Positions 33,857 through 38,584 of a DNA stretch of 64,000 nucleotides are shown one piece after another; within the stretch, counting starts at the first letter, position 1; each line of letters opens with the position of its first letter. The notes beneath the pieces are model-generated. The model saw only the letters and a program-made list of their open reading frames with translations. It was not told the DNA's origin and ran no database searches. This stretch comes from Escherichia phage VEc20. The translations under genes and the position numbers were made by a program. Location of the stretch: sequence record MN022785.1, one strand, 5' to 3'.

Positions 33857-33897
33857 TCCTATTTACTCCAAGTATAAGGGGCCGAAGCCCCTTATCA

Positions 33898-34593: not shown

Positions 34594-34857
34594 TTATTTC
34601 ATATTATTGAAATATTCTTCTGCGATTTCGTCGTTATCATGGTAAACTTTAGAAGACAGTTTAACATAACCTTCTGCTGTGAACATATTAATCACAACTT
34701 TTACAGTATACCACTGACCGTCTTCATTACCCATTACTGCGTAAGTTTCAAACATCGGATGATCAGGACCGATAACTTTAATATCATTCACTGTACGACC
34801 GAAATCTTCTGAAACGCATTTCATAAAGAAGTTGAACAGTTCGCCGTAATTATCCAT
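34594..34857 (-). CDS. Hypothetical protein
   Basis: ORF 34594..34911; start moved to MDNYGEL because a promoter-like element lies at 34901-34931. Confidence 0.5.
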   Translation of the reverse strand: MDNYGELFNFFMKCVSEDFGRTVNDIKVIGPDHPMFETYAVMGNEDGQWYTVKVVINMFTAEGYVKLSSKVYHDNDEIAEEYFNNMK

Positions 34858-34900
34858 TTCATTCTCCAAGTTGTTTTTCTGTATCAGTAGTTGATAGTTG

Positions 34901-34931
34901 TATAGTACCATGGAAGAACAGGGATGTAAAC
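34901..34931 (-). promoter_or_regulatory. PeSL-type early promoter-like element
   Basis: GTTTACA, 17 nt, TACTATA. Confidence 0.5.
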
Positions 34932-35062
34932 AGTTTTGTGAAAAAATTTTTAAAAAGTTTTAGGGAATTCTAGGGTCAGGAGGGACAATTAAAAGGTAGG
35001 ATAATATATTATAAAGGGTATAAACTAAATGATGCCTAGAGAGACAAGGAAAGGCCTAGATA

Positions 35063-35097
35063 CCAAAAAGCCCCAACCTTTTGGTCGGGGCTAAGAA
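35063..35097 (-). terminator. Rho-independent terminator (copy 1 of a repeated hairpin)
   Basis: Minus strand agccccgaccaaaaggttggggct followed by TTTTT; near-identical to the hairpin at 35596-35632. Confidence 0.7.
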
Positions 35098-35099
35098 TG

Positions 35100-35561
35100 T
35101 TATTTGATTTGTTTAGCAGACCAAATGCGGTCTTTGATGATTTTTTGGAGGTCTTCAACATACTCTAGGTCATGAGCATGTGGATTATCTTTGAAACTAT
35201 GAGCTCGCGCAAGTTTCTGGCCTTCGGTCTTAATTATCAAAAGTTCTTTAAGAATTGCTTCATACCTAGAGATAATTCCTTTAGCAATATTTTTTTCTTG
35301 TGCTGCTTTAGGGTCAGCCTTAGGAGCAGGTTTACCAGAAGGTTTTTCGAAAGCCGCGCCAGTAGCAACCAGGCTTTTCCAGGCGGTGGTAACATAGTTA
35401 CCCACAAAGCCTTCAGCTCTCATATCGTCGTAGAACTTGTACCGAGATTCGTCAGAAGCATCTTTATAAGAATATTTACCAGCTTTAATAGCAGCAGTTG
35501 CTACAGCGCGAACATCTGAAGCGGATGCTTCGGTCATTAAAAATTGAGCATAAGTTTTCAT
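35100..35561 (-). CDS. Internal-protein-like protein with capsid-targeting-sequence-like N-terminus
   Basis: 153 aa beginning MKTYAQF, compare the T4 IPIII capsid-targeting sequence MKTYQEFIAE; Lys/Ala-rich; flanked by the two repeated terminators. Confidence 0.6.
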   Translation of the reverse strand: MKTYAQFLMTEASASDVRAVATAAIKAGKYSYKDASDESRYKFYDDMRAEGFVGNYVTTAWKSLVATGAAFEKPSGKPAPKADPKAAQEKNIAKGIISRYEAILKELLIIKTEGQKLARAHSFKDNPHAHDLEYVEDLQKIIKDRIWSAKQIK

Positions 35562-35595
35562 TGTTATTTCCTGTGTTAATTAACTCATCTATTTA

Positions 35596-35632
35596 TACTA
35601 AAAAGCCCCAACCTTTCGATCGGGGCTAAGCC
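35596..35632 (-). terminator. Rho-independent terminator (copy 2)
   Basis: Minus strand agccccgatcgaaaggttggggct followed by TTTTT. Confidence 0.7.
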
Positions 35633-35639
35633 TTGCGGC

Positions 35640-35935
35640 AACCTTGTCGGGGTTCCACCTGCTAAGGCAAGTGTTTGTACGAAACGCCGGGATTCGAACC
35701 CGGTTATTAAGTAGTTGACGCTACTCAATATTTTTAAAAGGCCATATCTCGACCATATCCGAACGTTCCGTCAAAAACGCTACTCGGCTTACGGCAAAGA
35801 TATTTCCTCGAATCGATAATTCGGTGCGCCGTTTCTGCTGTGATAGTAAAGAGCCAGAACACAGTAAAACTGTGGGAGGAAACTATACTCCAGGGAACAT
35901 CAGTCCGACGACTTACCGGTAGCGACCCGGTTTCT
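35640..35935 (-). ncRNA. Putative stable structured RNA(s) with a tRNA-like T-arm (possible counterpart of T4 RNA species 1/2)
   Basis: No ORF; canonical T-arm CCGGG-TTCGAAT-CCCGG at 35687-35703 with a possible 7-bp acceptor pairing (35680-35686 with 35764-35770); followed by a terminator. Confidence 0.4.
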
Positions 35936-36285
35936 TAATATTCTTTTAAAGAATCAATATATTCACGGCGTTTACGCCACAAATCAATTGCTTCATACGC
36001 GGATTCAGCATTTCGAATTAGCCGGCATTTATGTAAAGACTTATGATTTTGATATTGTGTAGATAACGGAATTGTATCTAAAAGGTCTTTACGATCAAAA
36101 TATTCGTAACCATCTAAACCAAATGAACGATTTTTGAGAAATTGCCAATGACCATATTCGTTTTCGACATAAACATAATCTGCATGCTGATAAAGCAAAT
36201 TAATTACACGTTCAGAAATAACAGTATCATTATGATTAAAATAGAATGTTAAATCATGAACTACTAAATAAACATTACCTTTCAT
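35935..36285 (-). CDS. Hypothetical protein between tRNA-Arg and the structured-RNA region
   Basis: 116-aa ORF. Confidence 0.5.
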   Translation of the reverse strand: MKGNVYLVVHDLTFYFNHNDTVISERVINLLYQHADYVYVENEYGHWQFLKNRSFGLDGYEYFDRKDLLDTIPLSTQYQNHKSLHKCRLIRNAESAYEAIDLWRKRREYIDSLKEY

Positions 36286-36303
36286 ATTTTCCTCACTTAT
36301 AAT

Positions 36304-36379
36304 TGGTCGAGGCAGTAGGGATCGAACCTACGACCTAGGACTTAGAAGGTCCTTGCTCTTCCTTCTGAGCTATGCCCCG
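36304..36379 (-). tRNA. tRNA-Arg (anticodon UCU), CCA encoded
   Basis: Hand-folded cloverleaf: 7-bp acceptor with one G-U, T-arm GTAGG/CCTAC, anticodon loop CUUCUAA. Confidence 0.8.
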
Positions 36380-36383
36380 TAAT

Positions 36384-36459
36384 TGGGGTGACCGATGGGA
36401 GTCGAACCCATGACTACGAGAATCACAATCTCGAGTTCTACCAACTGAACTACGGCCAC
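36384..36459 (-). tRNA. tRNA-His (anticodon GUG), discriminator C, CCA encoded
   Basis: Hand-folded: T-arm ATGGG/CCCAT, anticodon stem CGAGA/TCTCG, loop UUGUGAU; G-1 not encoded. Confidence 0.65.
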
Positions 36460-36573
36460 ATTAATACCTACTCCAACAATCAAGATGTCTTCACACGAAA
36501 TTAAGAGAAGAGTGATCAGTTCAACCCCTATAATCGCGTCAAGTAGATATTAATGTGACAGTTGTCACAAATT

Positions 36574-36649
36574 TGGCGGACGTGATAGGATTCGAACCTA
36601 TAACCAATCGCTTAACAGGCGATCGCTCTGCCATTGAGCTACACATCCA
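36574..36649 (-). tRNA. tRNA-Asn (anticodon GUU)
   Basis: Hand-folded: T-arm ATAGG/CCTAT, anticodon stem ATCGC/GCGAT, loop CUGUUAA. Confidence 0.7.
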
Positions 36650-36652
36650 AAT

Positions 36653-36739
36653 TGGTGGGGAGTGGTGGAGTCGAACCACCCGAGTCGCAATGACAATGAA
36701 TTTACAGTCCACACCGCTACATCTACGGGATAACTCCCC
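36653..36739 (-). tRNA. Type II (long variable arm) tRNA, probably tRNA-Tyr (GUA)
   Basis: Perfect 7-bp acceptor, T-arm GGTGG/CCACC, 87 nt; anticodon loop CUGUAAA; D-arm and anticodon stem irregular. Confidence 0.55.
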
Positions 36740-36748
36740 AAATTAATT

Positions 36749-36823
36749 TGGTGGCCCTGGGTGGAATTGAACCACCATCTGGCGATTATGAGTCGCTTGC
36801 TTGAACCTTCCAGCTACAGGGCC
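36749..36823 (-). tRNA. tRNA with CAU anticodon (Met, or Ile if lysidine-modified as in T4)
   Basis: Perfect acceptor stem, T-loop TTCAATT, anticodon loop CUCAUAA. Confidence 0.75.
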
Positions 36824-36824
36824 T

Positions 36825-36900
36825 TGGTGCTGATTGACGGAATCGAACCGCCGACCTTCTCATTACAAGTGAGTTGCTCTACCTACTGAGCTAAATCAGC
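36825..36900 (-). tRNA. tRNA-Thr (anticodon UGU)
   Basis: Perfect acceptor, anticodon loop CUUGUAA. Confidence 0.8.
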
Positions 36901-36905
36901 AAAAC

Positions 36906-36995
36906 TGGCGGAGGCGATAGGATTTGAACCTATGAGTCGCCGGAGCGACTGCCGGTTTTCAAGACCGGTGCATTAAACCACTCTGCCACGCCTCC
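36906..36995 (-). tRNA. tRNA-Ser (anticodon UGA), type II
   Basis: 90 nt, variable-arm hairpin, anticodon loop CUUGAAA. Confidence 0.8.
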
Positions 36996-36997
36996 AG

Positions 36998-37071
36998 TCT
37001 CCGTGGCAGGATTTGAACCTACGACATTCTGCTCCCAAAGCAGACGCTCTACCAAACTGAGCTACACGGAG
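36998..37071 (-). tRNA. tRNA-Pro (anticodon UGG), CCA not encoded
   Basis: Anticodon loop UUUGGGA; 3' end 2 nt from the tRNA-Ser 5' end (Pro-Ser dimeric precursor as in T4). Confidence 0.8.
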
Positions 37072-37081
37072 TAAATTAAAT

Positions 37082-37155
<74 letters not shown>

Positions 37156-37160
37156 AAATT

Positions 37161-37247
37161 TGGTGCGAGAAGTGGGACTCGAACCCACAAGGAAATCATT
37201 CCGCAGCATTTTAAGTGCTGTGCCTTTACCAATTTGACCATTCTCGC
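37161..37247 (-). tRNA. tRNA-Leu (anticodon UAA), type II
   Basis: 87 nt, perfect acceptor, anticodon stem CAGCA/TGCTG, loop CUUAAAA. Confidence 0.8.
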
Positions 37248-37248
37248 G

Positions 37249-37321
37249 CTGGGAATAAAGGACTCGAACCTTTGCATCTAGCAGTCAAAGTGCTATGCCT
37301 TACCAACTTGGCTAATTCCCA
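37249..37321 (-). tRNA. tRNA-Gln (anticodon UUG), CCA not encoded
   Basis: Anticodon loop CUUUGAC; 3' end abuts the tRNA-Leu 5' end (Gln-Leu dimeric precursor as in T4). Confidence 0.8.
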
Positions 37322-37418
37322 ATTATTAACAAAGGCTCTCTAACAAGAACCCTTGATGATAGAGGGTATTAATCAGTGCGGTATGAGTTAATAATAACAA
37401 ATAATTCTTAAAGCATAT

Positions 37419-38350: not shown

Positions 38351-38584
38351 TTATTTTTTACGAAAAATTGATTTATTTTCTGCTGCCCATTTTTCAATAA
38401 CTGCAGCAGGACCAGTAACAACAATTTTATCACCGTAATCTTCTGCGGCGAGTTGACCGAAATTATCTAATGCATCACGAAGAACTCCATGAGGCATTTC
38501 ACCCATTTTATCTTTCTTGCCGGTGTAAATAAACTCAACTTTTACATCAGAAGATTCAGCGATAAACTCTTTGAAAGTTTTCAT
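38351..38584 (-). CDS. Internal-protein-like small protein with capsid-targeting sequence
   Basis: ORF 38351..38596; starts MKTFKEFIAE at the internal Met, matching the T4 IP capsid-targeting sequence pattern. Confidence 0.6.
   Translation of the reverse strand: MKTFKEFIAESSDVKVEFIYTGKKDKMGEMPHGVLRDALDNFGQLAAEDYGDKIVVTGPAAVIEKWAAENKSIFRKK

What the first reader, a model, noticed from the sequence alone, without database searches (positions are those of the whole stretch)
35063..35632. Near-identical terminator hairpins flanking one internal-protein-like gene
Two 35-bp terminators (agcccc...ggggct stem plus T-run on the minus strand) sit immediately downstream and upstream of the 153-aa MKTYAQF gene. 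Direct repeats on both sides of a single gene form a substrate for cassette excision or exchange by homologous recombination, and also insulate its transcription.
Basis: seen in the sequence. Interest (0 to 1): 0.45.

Follow-up and report, generated by a model that had tools for sequence, protein, structure and literature searches.

The report
Duplicated terminator flanking a phage gene cassette
In this T4-like phage, a small late gene for a probable injected "internal protein" sits between two copies of the terminator that ends the tRNA operon; related phages have this gene, two genes or none at exactly this point, a pattern already described for this phage group.

Summary
Two 36-nt direct repeats (35060-35095 and 35595-35630, 33/36 identical) each hold a 10-bp GC-rich hairpin plus a T-run on the minus strand. 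They bracket a 153-aa ORF (35100-35561) with a leader like the T4 capsid-targeting sequence. They resemble each other (30/33) far more than any of 19 other terminator-like hairpins in the window (≤21/33).

The window is a Tequatrovirus. The upstream copy is the terminator after the rnaD/rnaC RNAs of the tRNA operon. The T4 late-promoter box TATAAATA overlaps its 3' end.

T4, T2, RB9 and about 88 of 675 phage records have one hairpin and no gene here. Most others carry this gene family, and many carry a second, unrelated leader-bearing gene with a third terminator. Breakpoints fall exactly at the repeat. Three haplotypes of the adjacent flank each occur with and without the cassette. A two-base stem variant occurs in either copy or both. 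This supports recurrent recombination at the hairpins.

The idea matches the published PeSL model for T4-like phages, and RB32's GenBank entry already notes the repeat. What may be new is modest: a terminator/late-promoter version of PeSL, and a third internal-protein locus that is empty in T4. No excision, termination or packaging was tested.

The parts
35823..35935 (-). rnaD-like stable RNA (species 2 RNA), part of the tRNA transcription unit upstream of the cassette
   Evidence: Local alignment to T4 rnaD gives 97/121 identical; alignment A3. No Rfam family matched.
35678..35816 (-). rnaC (species 1 RNA), the last gene of the tRNA/stable-RNA unit; the upstream hairpin lies 50 nt past its 3' end
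   Evidence: 138/139 identical to the annotated T4 rnaC.
35595..35630 (-). Upstream repeat copy (U). Stem-loop 35604-35627 (AGCCCCGATC-GAAA-GGTTGGGGCT) followed by TTTT. This is the resident terminator after rnaC, and it is the only copy present in T4 and T2.
   Evidence: Its left flank ccgcaagg is the same as at the single hairpin of T4/T2.
35590..35597 (-). T4-type late promoter box TATAAATA. Its first three bases (TAT) are the last three bases of the upstream repeat.
   Evidence: One of only 13 TATAAATA in 128 kb counting both strands. Present, exact or with one mismatch, after the U hairpin in every filled locus, and replaced by GTATCTAGG in empty sites. Annotated as a late promoter in SA20RB.
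35567..35572 (-). Shine-Dalgarno-like AGGAAA, 5 nt before the ATG
   Evidence: Read directly from the sequence.
35100..35561 (-). 153-aa ORF, a candidate internal (injected) protein. Codons 1-11 (35529-35561) encode MKTYAQFLMTE, a leader like the capsid-targeting sequence.
   Evidence: It matches phrog_2280 (unknown function, E = 5e-52) and no Pfam family. Homologues occur only in T-even-type phages and all are unnamed. The AF2 model is all-helical, pLDDT 73, with no structural analogue.
35060..35095 (-). Downstream repeat copy (D). Stem-loop 35069-35092 (AGCCCCGACC-AAAA-GGTTGGGGCT) followed by TTTT. It is the terminator of the cassette, and its right flank ctaggcc is the flank that follows the single hairpin in T4 and T2.
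35043..35048 (-). Six-base hypervariable patch (CTTGTC here) 12 nt beyond the D repeat. Used as a flank marker to show that cassette presence or absence is unlinked to the flank.
   Evidence: Five haplotypes were seen. CTTGTC, CGGGCC and TGGACC each occur in both empty and filled genomes.
34902..34930 (-). Early promoter of e.8 (GTTTACA-N17-TACTAT, with TG). This is the next transcription unit downstream.
   Evidence: Promoter scan. The homologous site is annotated as a T4 early promoter in SA20RB. Sequence.
34594..34857 (-). e.8 homologue (87 aa), the conserved left neighbour of the site
   Evidence: 86/87 aa identical to T4 e.8; matches phrog_2678.

Best explanation
The window comes from a T4-like phage (Tequatrovirus). 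The site is the intergenic gap between the tRNA/rnaD/rnaC transcription unit and the early gene e.8. In T4 and T2 this gap holds a single intrinsic terminator.

Here the gap carries a 535-bp self-contained late-gene cassette. The cassette consists of the remainder of a TATAAATA late promoter, a ribosome-binding site, a 153-aa ORF with a capsid-targeting-type leader, and its own copy of the same terminator. The result is that the terminator is present as a 36-nt direct repeat on both sides of the gene.

Inferred function of the two copies. The upstream copy stops tRNA-operon transcription, and the late promoter that overlaps its tail then starts the gene. The downstream copy stops the late transcript before the e.8 early promoter.

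Inferred mechanism of gain and loss. T4-type phages recombine very actively, so the two copies, and the single copy in empty-site phages, act as short homologies. Crossing-over between the flanking copies deletes the gene and leaves one chimeric hairpin. The reverse event, a circular or co-infecting cassette recombining with a resident hairpin, inserts it. Gene conversion keeps the two copies alike.

Shown here: the anatomy, the exact breakpoints, the population polymorphism and the concerted evolution of the copies.

Inferred only: termination, late expression, packaging of the protein, and the actual recombination intermediates.
For: - Identity of the locus. rnaC is 138/139 and e.8 is 86/87 identical to T4, and 770 phage records match, nearly all T-even-type.
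- Repeat and hairpins.
- Exact empty site. T4, T2, G2133, RB9, JE01 and SHFML-11 have the rnaC flank, one hairpin and the e.8 flank.
- Frequency. 88 of 675 records cover at least 80% of a 103-nt empty-junction query. The place counts (1129 places in 675 records) imply about 454 records that match in two separate places, as expected for filled sites. 469 of 668 records hold the gene with both hairpins.
- Arrays. D5505 and ZN18 carry a second cassette with an unrelated 187-aa protein that shares only the 12-13 aa leader.
- Late promoter. It is conserved at the U junction in all filled loci across Tequatrovirus, Mosigvirus, Dhakavirus and Jiaodavirus, and absent from empty sites.
- Recurrence. 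Three flank haplotypes each occur with and without the cassette.
- Exchange between copies. The stem variant AGCC is in the D copy only in RB32 (about 22 exact records), in the U copy in about 34 records (U only in L031), and in both in NR1. In Mosigvirus and Dhakavirus both copies share lineage-specific stems.
- Selection on structure. GACC and AGCC both pair with the unchanged 3' arm, and the window's private C-to-T change gives a G-U pair.
- Literature. PeSL elements flank variable ORFs, and excised mini-circles were detected by inverse PCR (PMC2839356; PMC4122927). T4 deletes and amplifies segments through short homologies (PMC9391042). RB32ORF133c is annotated 'flanked by 34 bp imperfect direct repeat'.
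Against: - No experiment here shows termination, late transcription, excision or packaging.
- 36 nt is short for efficient T4 homologous recombination (own knowledge, Singer et al. 1982), so such events may be rare.
- Presence/absence could spread mainly by ordinary allelic recombination in the long flanks during co-infection.
- ST0, Klebsiella AM_K5 and the second D5505 cassette have a different downstream terminator. A perfect repeat is therefore not needed for occupancy.
- The protease site in this allele is L-M-T-E, not the canonical L/I-X-E.
- The sample of individually inspected genomes is small, about 25.
Confidence: 0.7

Rival explanations
1. The two hairpins are alike only because both must be good terminators, or because they share a single old duplication. 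They play no special role in recombination. The with/without-gene polymorphism arose once and has been passed around by ordinary homologous recombination in the long conserved flanks (rnaC side and e.8 side) during mixed infections.
For: The flanks are highly conserved, with 0-8 differences in 194 nt on the rnaC side, which gives ample homology for allelic exchange. Distant relatives keep the same terminator / late promoter / gene / terminator layout with non-identical terminators. T-even phages recombine freely (PMC9391042).
Against: The identity extends beyond what the structure needs: the 5' CTTA, the loop and the 3' GTAT. The two-base AGCC variant appears at either copy or both, and both copies share genus-specific stems, which requires transfer between copies or repeated re-creation at the hairpin. 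Three haplotypes of a patch only 12 nt from the repeat each occur with and without the cassette, so crossovers must fall within or right beside the hairpin repeatedly.
Confidence: 0.2
2. The repeat is a target-site duplication or homing scar made by a mobile element, such as a transposon or a homing-endonuclease-driven insertion, rather than a product of homologous recombination.
For: The neighbouring tRNA region of many relatives carries the SegB-type homing endonuclease gene. SegB is reported to drive preferential inheritance of the tRNA region (PMC2330249, listed).
Against: The cassette encodes no nuclease, transposase or integrase, only one 153-aa helical protein with no family match. A 36-nt duplication is far longer than typical target-site duplications. 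This window has no segB, since tRNA-His, Asn and Tyr occupy that position. The duplicated sequence is a complete functional-looking terminator.
Confidence: 0.05
3. The similarity of the two hairpins is a coincidence among many GC-rich phage terminators.
For: T4-type terminators often have GGGGC stems and GNRA or UUCG loops. A related hairpin occurs at another locus in other T4-like contigs.
Against: 0 of 100 shuffles give even one match at 3 mismatches or fewer. The two share 30/33 positions against at most 21/33 for the other 19 hairpins in the window. The same pair is conserved in hundreds of genomes.
Confidence: 0.01

Closest known systems
PeSL / PmSL elements (promoter-early or promoter-middle stem-loops) of T4-like phages; Arbiol et al. 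2010 (PMC2839356), Comeau et al. 2014 (PMC4122927)
   Same: A short composite regulatory motif holding a terminator stem-loop next to a promoter, repeated on both sides of a non-essential variable ORF in a hyperplastic region. Indels between close relatives have their ends in the motif. The proposed mechanism is excision and integration by recombination between the copies. Those authors themselves link the idea to the internal-protein locus polymorphism.
   Different: Here the promoter is a late TATAAATA box, not a sigma-70-type early promoter or a Mot-box middle promoter. Only 3 nt of the promoter lie inside the repeat, and the downstream copy has no promoter at all. The repeated unit is essentially a classical intrinsic terminator (the tRNA-operon terminator) and occurs only twice in 64 kb, not as a dispersed family. 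Mini-circles were not tested.
T4 internal proteins IpI, IpII, IpIII and the polymorphic ip loci of T-even phages (Repoila et al. 1994, as cited in PMC4122927 and PMC12373910; CTS work reviewed in PMC9026906)
   Same: A small non-essential protein with the N-terminal MKTY..F..E leader, a late promoter, and a body unrelated to other proteins carrying the same leader. The locus content varies between close relatives. Ip1-3 are injected inhibitors of GmrSD type IV restriction enzymes (PMC12373910).
   Different: It lies at a different locus (between rnaC and e.8) from the two Ip loci named in the literature, and that locus is empty in T4. It has no sequence or structural similarity to IpI-III beyond the leader. 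The Glu of the cleavage site is one residue out of register in this allele. Packaging and function are untested.
Morons of lambdoid phages (ORF with its own promoter and terminator inserted between two genes that are adjacent in relatives), as described in PMC1524935
   Same: A self-contained promoter-ORF-terminator unit, present or absent between the same two neighbours in related genomes.
   Different: Its GC content (39%) is only slightly above the phage average (35%), so there is no sign of recent host origin. It is expressed from a phage late promoter rather than in a lysogen. Its terminator is a copy of the resident one, which is not part of the moron definition.

Membership tests
Intrinsic (rho-independent) terminator | GC-rich stem-loop that is markedly stable | tested here: met
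   10-bp stems with 7 and 6 G-C pairs and 4-nt loops. Fold energies are -19.5 and -17.7 kcal/mol, z = -3.8 and -3.5.
Intrinsic (rho-independent) terminator | U-rich tract immediately 3' of the stem | tested here: met
   The stem ends in CU and is followed by UUUU, then GGUAU or AGUAU. This gives 5 consecutive U, which is rather short.
Intrinsic (rho-independent) terminator | RNA 3' ends formed at the site in vivo or in vitro | not testable with these tools
   No transcript data are available. The position after rnaC in T4 fits the end of the tRNA operon (own knowledge of Broida and Abelson 1985).
PeSL (promoter-early stem-loop) elements | Stem-loop acting as terminator or attenuator within the repeated motif | tested here: met
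   Definition taken from PMC2839356.
PeSL (promoter-early stem-loop) elements | Sigma-70-like early promoter (-35/-10, AT-rich upstream region) as part of the repeated motif | tested here: not met
   The repeat carries no -35/-10 pair. The upstream copy abuts a late TATAAATA box and the downstream copy abuts CTAGG. The nearest early promoter (34902-34930) is 130 nt outside the repeat.
PeSL (promoter-early stem-loop) elements | Flanks variable non-essential ORFs, with indel ends between close relatives falling in the motif | tested here: met
   Alignment A1, empty sites, flank haplotypes.
PeSL (promoter-early stem-loop) elements | Many dispersed copies per genome, concentrated in hyperplastic regions | tested here: not met
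   Only two copies in this 64-kb window at 3 mismatches or fewer. A related hairpin occurs at a tk-region locus in other phages.
PeSL (promoter-early stem-loop) elements | Formation of excised mini-circles by recombination between copies | not testable with these tools
   This needs inverse PCR on infected cells, as in PMC2839356.
T4-type internal proteins (CTS-bearing, injected) | N-terminal capsid-targeting sequence of about 10 aa, with targeting determinants at residues 4 and 7 | tested here: met
   MKTYAQFLMTE against T4 MKTYQEFIAE. M1, K2, Y4 and F7 are invariant in the family. The determinants are as given in PMC9026906. Unrelated proteins at the same site share only this leader.
T4-type internal proteins (CTS-bearing, injected) | gp21 cleavage motif L/I-X-E followed by a small residue at the end of the leader | tested here: inconclusive
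   This allele has F-L-M-T-E|A, so Glu is at position 11 and the spacing is L-x-x-E. Long-leader alleles (RB32, D5505) have canonical FLNE|A and VLNE|A.
T4-type internal proteins (CTS-bearing, injected) | Late (gp55-dependent) expression | tested here: met
   Tested at sequence level only. An exact TATAAATA lies 28 nt before the ATG and is conserved across genera. No expression data.
T4-type internal proteins (CTS-bearing, injected) | Presence in the mature head and injection with the DNA; anti-restriction activity | not testable with these tools
   No proteomic or functional data were found.
Moron | Promoter + ORF + terminator inserted between genes that are adjacent in relatives | tested here: met
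Moron | Base composition distinct from the surrounding genome | tested here: inconclusive
   The cassette is 39.3% GC against 35.1% for the window and 35.9-38.3% for the flanks.

The most novel reading that the evidence does not exclude
The rnaC terminator with its overlapping late-promoter junction may be a dedicated landing pad, a third internal-protein locus that T4 itself leaves empty. Cassettes made of late promoter, leader-tagged ORF and terminator would be captured, stacked in tandem and lost by recombination at the hairpin, somewhat like an integron but driven by the phage's general recombination system. The 153-aa family and the unrelated 187-aa and 208-aa neighbours would be new injected anti-defence proteins, for example inhibitors of further GmrSD-type restriction variants.
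Probability: 0.25. Interest if true: 0.55.

Novelty: new member of a known kind. Interest (0 to 1): 0.3.

Why it matters
If the reading is right, the site is a natural, repeatedly used insertion point for leader-tagged, probably injected proteins in T-even phages. Recent work speaks of only two Ip loci and shows that Ip1-3 each disable a different GmrSD restriction enzyme (PMC12373910). A third locus with at least three unrelated leader-bearing families (153/157 aa, 187 aa, 208 aa) would give new candidates for anti-defence proteins. It would also offer a ready-made neutral site, empty in T4, for inserting cargo to be packaged into heads. For genome evolution it extends the PeSL idea from early and middle promoter motifs to a plain terminator/late-promoter junction. 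It supplies population-level evidence from hundreds of genomes for recurrent gain and loss and for gene conversion at a 36-nt repeat. It is not a new principle.

Tried and rejected
- Rfam, E-value mode over 34900-37400, found only the tRNAs and chance hits, with no family for rnaC/rnaD or the hairpins. rnaC/rnaD were identified by alignment to T4 instead.
- Pfam gave nothing for the 153-aa protein, and PHROGs gave only an unknown-function family.
- The large protein search returned 10 unnamed phage homologues.
- An AF2 model (pLDDT 73, pTM 0.46) searched with Foldseek against PDB and BFVD found no analogue outside its own family. The protein's function stays unknown.
- An IMG/VR scan for the empty-site junction found 0 contigs, and a looser hairpin pattern found only 17 loci. 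IMG/VR was too sparse for population counts, so the GenBank phage collection was used.
- T4 ipII/ipIII were checked for the same hairpin. They lack it and have PeSL-like promoter/stem-loops instead, so the cassette terminator was not obviously copied from that locus.
- Literature searches for this locus, for RB32ORF133c, and for a late-promoter/terminator repeat found nothing. Repoila et al. 1994 is not held.
- Chance similarity and a transposon-type target duplication were both considered and rejected (see rival explanations).

Full report
**1. What is in the sequence**

The region 35060-35630 holds two copies of a 36-nt sequence in direct orientation, 35060-35095 and 35595-35630, with 33/36 identical bases.
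- On the minus strand each copy reads CTTAGCCCCGAyCrAAAGGTTGGGGCTTTTTrGTAT.
- Each has a 10-bp stem (AGCCCCGAyC / GGTTGGGGCT), a 4-nt loop, and a run of T.
- The terminator scan lists them as the two strongest terminator-like sites between 30 and 42 kb.
- As RNA they fold at -19.5 and -17.7 kcal/mol, and none of 200 shuffles does as well.
- Only these two copies exist in the 64-kb window at up to three mismatches, with none expected by chance.
Of 21 terminator-like hairpins in the whole window, these two share 30 of 33 positions, and the next best shares 21.
- The three differences are structure-neutral: C-G to U-G in the stem, AAAA to GAAA in the loop, and one base after the T-run.

Between the copies lies a 153-aa ORF on the minus strand, 35100-35561.

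**2. Where we are**

The window is a T4-like phage of the genus Tequatrovirus. 770 phage records match the surroundings, the best overall being G8 (95.9%). ZCEC15 matches the cassette itself at 99.8%.

On the minus strand the order is:
- a cluster of 11 tRNA genes, 37321 to 36304;
- a 116-aa ORF;
- rnaD, 35935-35823, about 80% identical to T4;
- rnaC, 35816-35678, 138/139 identical to T4;
- a 50-nt spacer;
- the upstream hairpin (U), then the 153-aa gene, then the downstream hairpin (D);
- about 130 nt of spacer;
- an early promoter, GTTTACA-N17-TACTAT, at 34930-34902;
- e.8, 34857-34594, 86/87 aa identical to T4.

The U hairpin is therefore the terminator at the end of the tRNA/stable-RNA unit.

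**3. Anatomy of the cassette**

Directly after the U hairpin the minus strand reads GGGGCTTTTTAG-TATAAATA-G.
- TATAAATA is the T4 late-promoter consensus. It occurs only 13 times in both strands of the window.
- Its first three bases are the last three of the repeat.
- 28 nt further on is the ATG, preceded by AGGAAA.
- The gene's stop codon is 7 nt before the D stem.
- The D copy is followed by CTAGG, not by a promoter.

The unit that distinguishes this genome from an empty one is 535 bp. It consists of the rest of the late promoter, the ribosome-binding site, the ORF and one terminator copy.

**4. The protein**

It starts MKTYAQFLMTE|ASAS. T4 IpII and IpIII start MKTYQEFIAE|A.
- In an alignment of the family, M1, K2, Y4, F7 and the Glu are invariant.
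- According to the review of Black's work, targeting depends mainly on residues 4 and 7, processing depends on residues 8 and 10, and the protease gp21 cuts after L/I-X-E (PMC9026906).
- This allele has L-M-T-E, one residue out of register. Relatives with a 4-aa longer leader have the canonical FLNE|A and VLNE|A.
- At the same site other phages carry unrelated proteins that share only this leader: a 187-aa protein in D5505 (MKTYAEFLTEA) and a 208-aa protein in ST0 (MYTFNEFLAETE).

A leader conserved on unrelated bodies is what a packaging signal should look like.

Function is unknown. The protein has no Pfam family, it falls in a PHROG of unknown function, its homologues are unnamed, and its all-helical model has no structural analogue.

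**5. Related genomes**

- **Empty sites.** In T4, T2, G2133, RB9, JE01 and SHFML-11 the rnaC-side flank (..ccgcaagg) is joined to one hairpin, and this is joined to the e.8-side flank (ctaggcc..). There is no gene.
- **One cassette.** RB32, SA20RB, G8 and ZCEC15 have one cassette.
- **Two cassettes.** D5505, ZN18 and many others have two cassettes and three terminators. The third terminator has a different stem but the same tail, GGGCTTTTTGGTAT.
- **Breakpoints.** Alignment A1 shows the indel ends coincide with the repeat.
- **Frequencies.** In the GenBank phage collection, a 103-nt empty-junction query is covered at least 80% in 88 of 675 matching records. The place counts (1129 places in 675 records) imply that roughly 454 records match in two separate places, as expected for filled sites. 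469 of 668 records hold the gene with both hairpins.
- **Other genera.** The architecture also occurs in Mosigvirus and Dhakavirus. In ST0 and a Klebsiella Jiaodavirus, the U hairpin, the TATAAATA box and a leader-bearing gene are present, but the downstream terminator is different.

**6. Evidence that the hairpins actually recombine**

(a) Flank haplotypes. A 6-nt hypervariable patch 12 nt beyond the D repeat has five haplotypes, and three of them occur in both empty and filled genomes:

| Patch haplotype | Filled genomes | Empty genome |
|---|---|---|
| CTTGTC | window, ZCEC15, RB32 | RB9 |
| CGGGCC | SA20RB, NR1, L031 | SHFML-11 |
| TGGACC | D5505, ZN18 (two cassettes) | JE01 |

Either gain or loss happened several times, or crossovers repeatedly fell within about 12 nt of the hairpin.

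(b) A shared two-base variant. The stem change GACC to AGCC is in the D copy only in RB32-type genomes (about 22 exact records). It is in the U copy in about 34 records (U only in L031), and in both copies in NR1. Mixed forms could arise by allelic crossover inside the gene. But having both the "AGCC in both copies" and the "GACC in both copies" states needs either transfer between copies or independent formation of the duplication on different resident hairpins.

(c) Genus-specific stems. In Mosigvirus both copies carry TTCC stems. In one Dhakavirus both carry GGCCC..GGGCC.

(d) Conserved pairing. GACC and AGCC both pair with the unchanged 3' arm, so the hairpin is under selection.

**7. Mechanism**

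Shown here: the anatomy, the exact breakpoints, the polymorphism, and the concerted evolution of the copies.

Inferred:
- The U copy ends tRNA-operon transcripts.
- The late promoter drives a monocistronic message.
- The D copy ends that message before the early e.8 unit.
- The protein is packaged through its leader and injected.
- The two copies, and the single copy in empty-site phages, serve as short homologies for the phage recombination system.
- Recombination between them produces deletion (one chimeric hairpin left), insertion (a Campbell-type event between a circular or co-infecting cassette and the resident hairpin), tandem stacking, and conversion.

T4 is known to delete and amplify segments through short homologies (PMC9391042). 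Excised mini-circles have been shown for PeSL-flanked ORFs in RB49 and phi1 (PMC2839356).

**8. Comparison with what is known**

The idea is essentially the PeSL model (PMC2839356; PMC4122927). Those authors trace it back to the internal-protein locus polymorphism of Repoila et al. 1994.

It is not a PeSL in the strict sense:
- The repeat has no early promoter.
- Only 3 nt of a late promoter lie within it.
- It is not a dispersed family in this window.

The gene fits the internal-protein class by leader and promoter, but packaging is untested and the cleavage spacing is off by one in this allele. The unit also fits the structural definition of a moron.

The repeat itself is already recorded. 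RB32ORF133c is annotated "flanked by 34 bp imperfect direct repeat".

I could not find the following in the literature: recognition of this rnaC/e.8 site as a locus for leader-bearing proteins (a 2025 paper speaks of two Ip loci), or the population evidence in section 6.

**9. Verdict**

- The finding is a new member of a known kind and is partly already annotated.
- Interest is modest (0.3). It could be useful for those hunting injected anti-defence proteins or a neutral insertion site in T4, but it is not surprising to a T4 specialist.

Noticed in passing
window 38351-38584 (-): A second ORF (77 aa) has a capsid-targeting-like start, MKTFKEFIAESSDV. It is preceded by an early-type promoter (GTTTACA..TACTAT) rather than a late one. 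It is the only other ORF in the window that matches the leader pattern.
   Followed up: no
window 35043-35048 (minus-strand CTTGTC), 12 nt beyond the downstream repeat: A six-base patch has five very different haplotypes across close relatives (CTTGTC, CAGACC, CGGGCC, CGAGCC, TGGACC). It sits between perfectly conserved CTAGGCCTTTC and TCTCTAGGC. The cause is unknown: possibly a weak hairpin (AGGCC..GGCCT in one haplotype) or a recombination scar.
   Followed up: partly
window 35100-35561 (-), compared with L005 (SA20RB) and P0001: The gene is a mosaic. The 3' half is nearly identical to SA20RB while the 5' half is about 70% identical. The leader has a 12-nt indel (FLMTE against FLNEAVLNE), and this indel occurs in either combination with the body type. 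P0001 has the long leader with the window-type body.
   Followed up: partly
window 35935-36285 (-): A 116-aa ORF (phrog_3355, unknown function) lies between tRNA-Arg and rnaD. It is present in T2, D5505, Shf125875 and ECO78 (annotated 'endonuclease' there) but absent from T4, G8, RB32 and ZCEC15, where tRNA-Arg abuts rnaD. This is a second presence/absence site 300 nt from the first.
   Followed up: no
window 36304-37321 (-), compared with L001, L003, L004, L006: The tRNA cluster has 11 genes, including His, Asn and Tyr, and no segB. T4, G8, RB32, ZCEC15 and SA20RB carry a SegB-type homing endonuclease gene in that position and fewer tRNAs. The cassette site lies within about 0.8 kb of this homing-endonuclease polymorphism, so it could be co-converted with it.
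   Followed up: no
window 35678-35935 (-): rnaC and rnaD (T4 species 1 and 2 RNAs) have no Rfam family and were not detected even in E-value mode. rnaC is almost invariant (138/139 against T4), while rnaD is only about 80% identical, with a divergent central segment.
   Followed up: partly
L018 3503-3531, L023 5103-5131, L027 202-230 (IMG/VR contigs): The same hairpin family (GCCCCTTCC-loop-GGTTGGGGCTTTTTT) occurs at an unrelated locus, downstream of a small ORF after thymidine kinase, in other T4-like contigs. In L027/L029 (phiE142) it occurs both there and at the rnaC site. In some genomes the terminator is therefore a dispersed module.
   Followed up: partly
window 33874-33895: A palindromic GC-rich hairpin (ATAAGGGGCCGAAGCCCCTTAT) lies between the e.6 and e.5 homologues. 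The + strand passed the terminator scan; the minus-strand reading was not listed. It is annotated as a terminator in G8, D5505 and SA20RB.
   Followed up: no
L010 (PSD2002, Dhakavirus) 1355-1496: Here the gene is followed first by a different small terminator (GCCCCAGATGGGGC). The second copy of the repeat hairpin comes only about 100 nt later, so the direct repeat encloses the gene plus an extra terminator.
   Followed up: no
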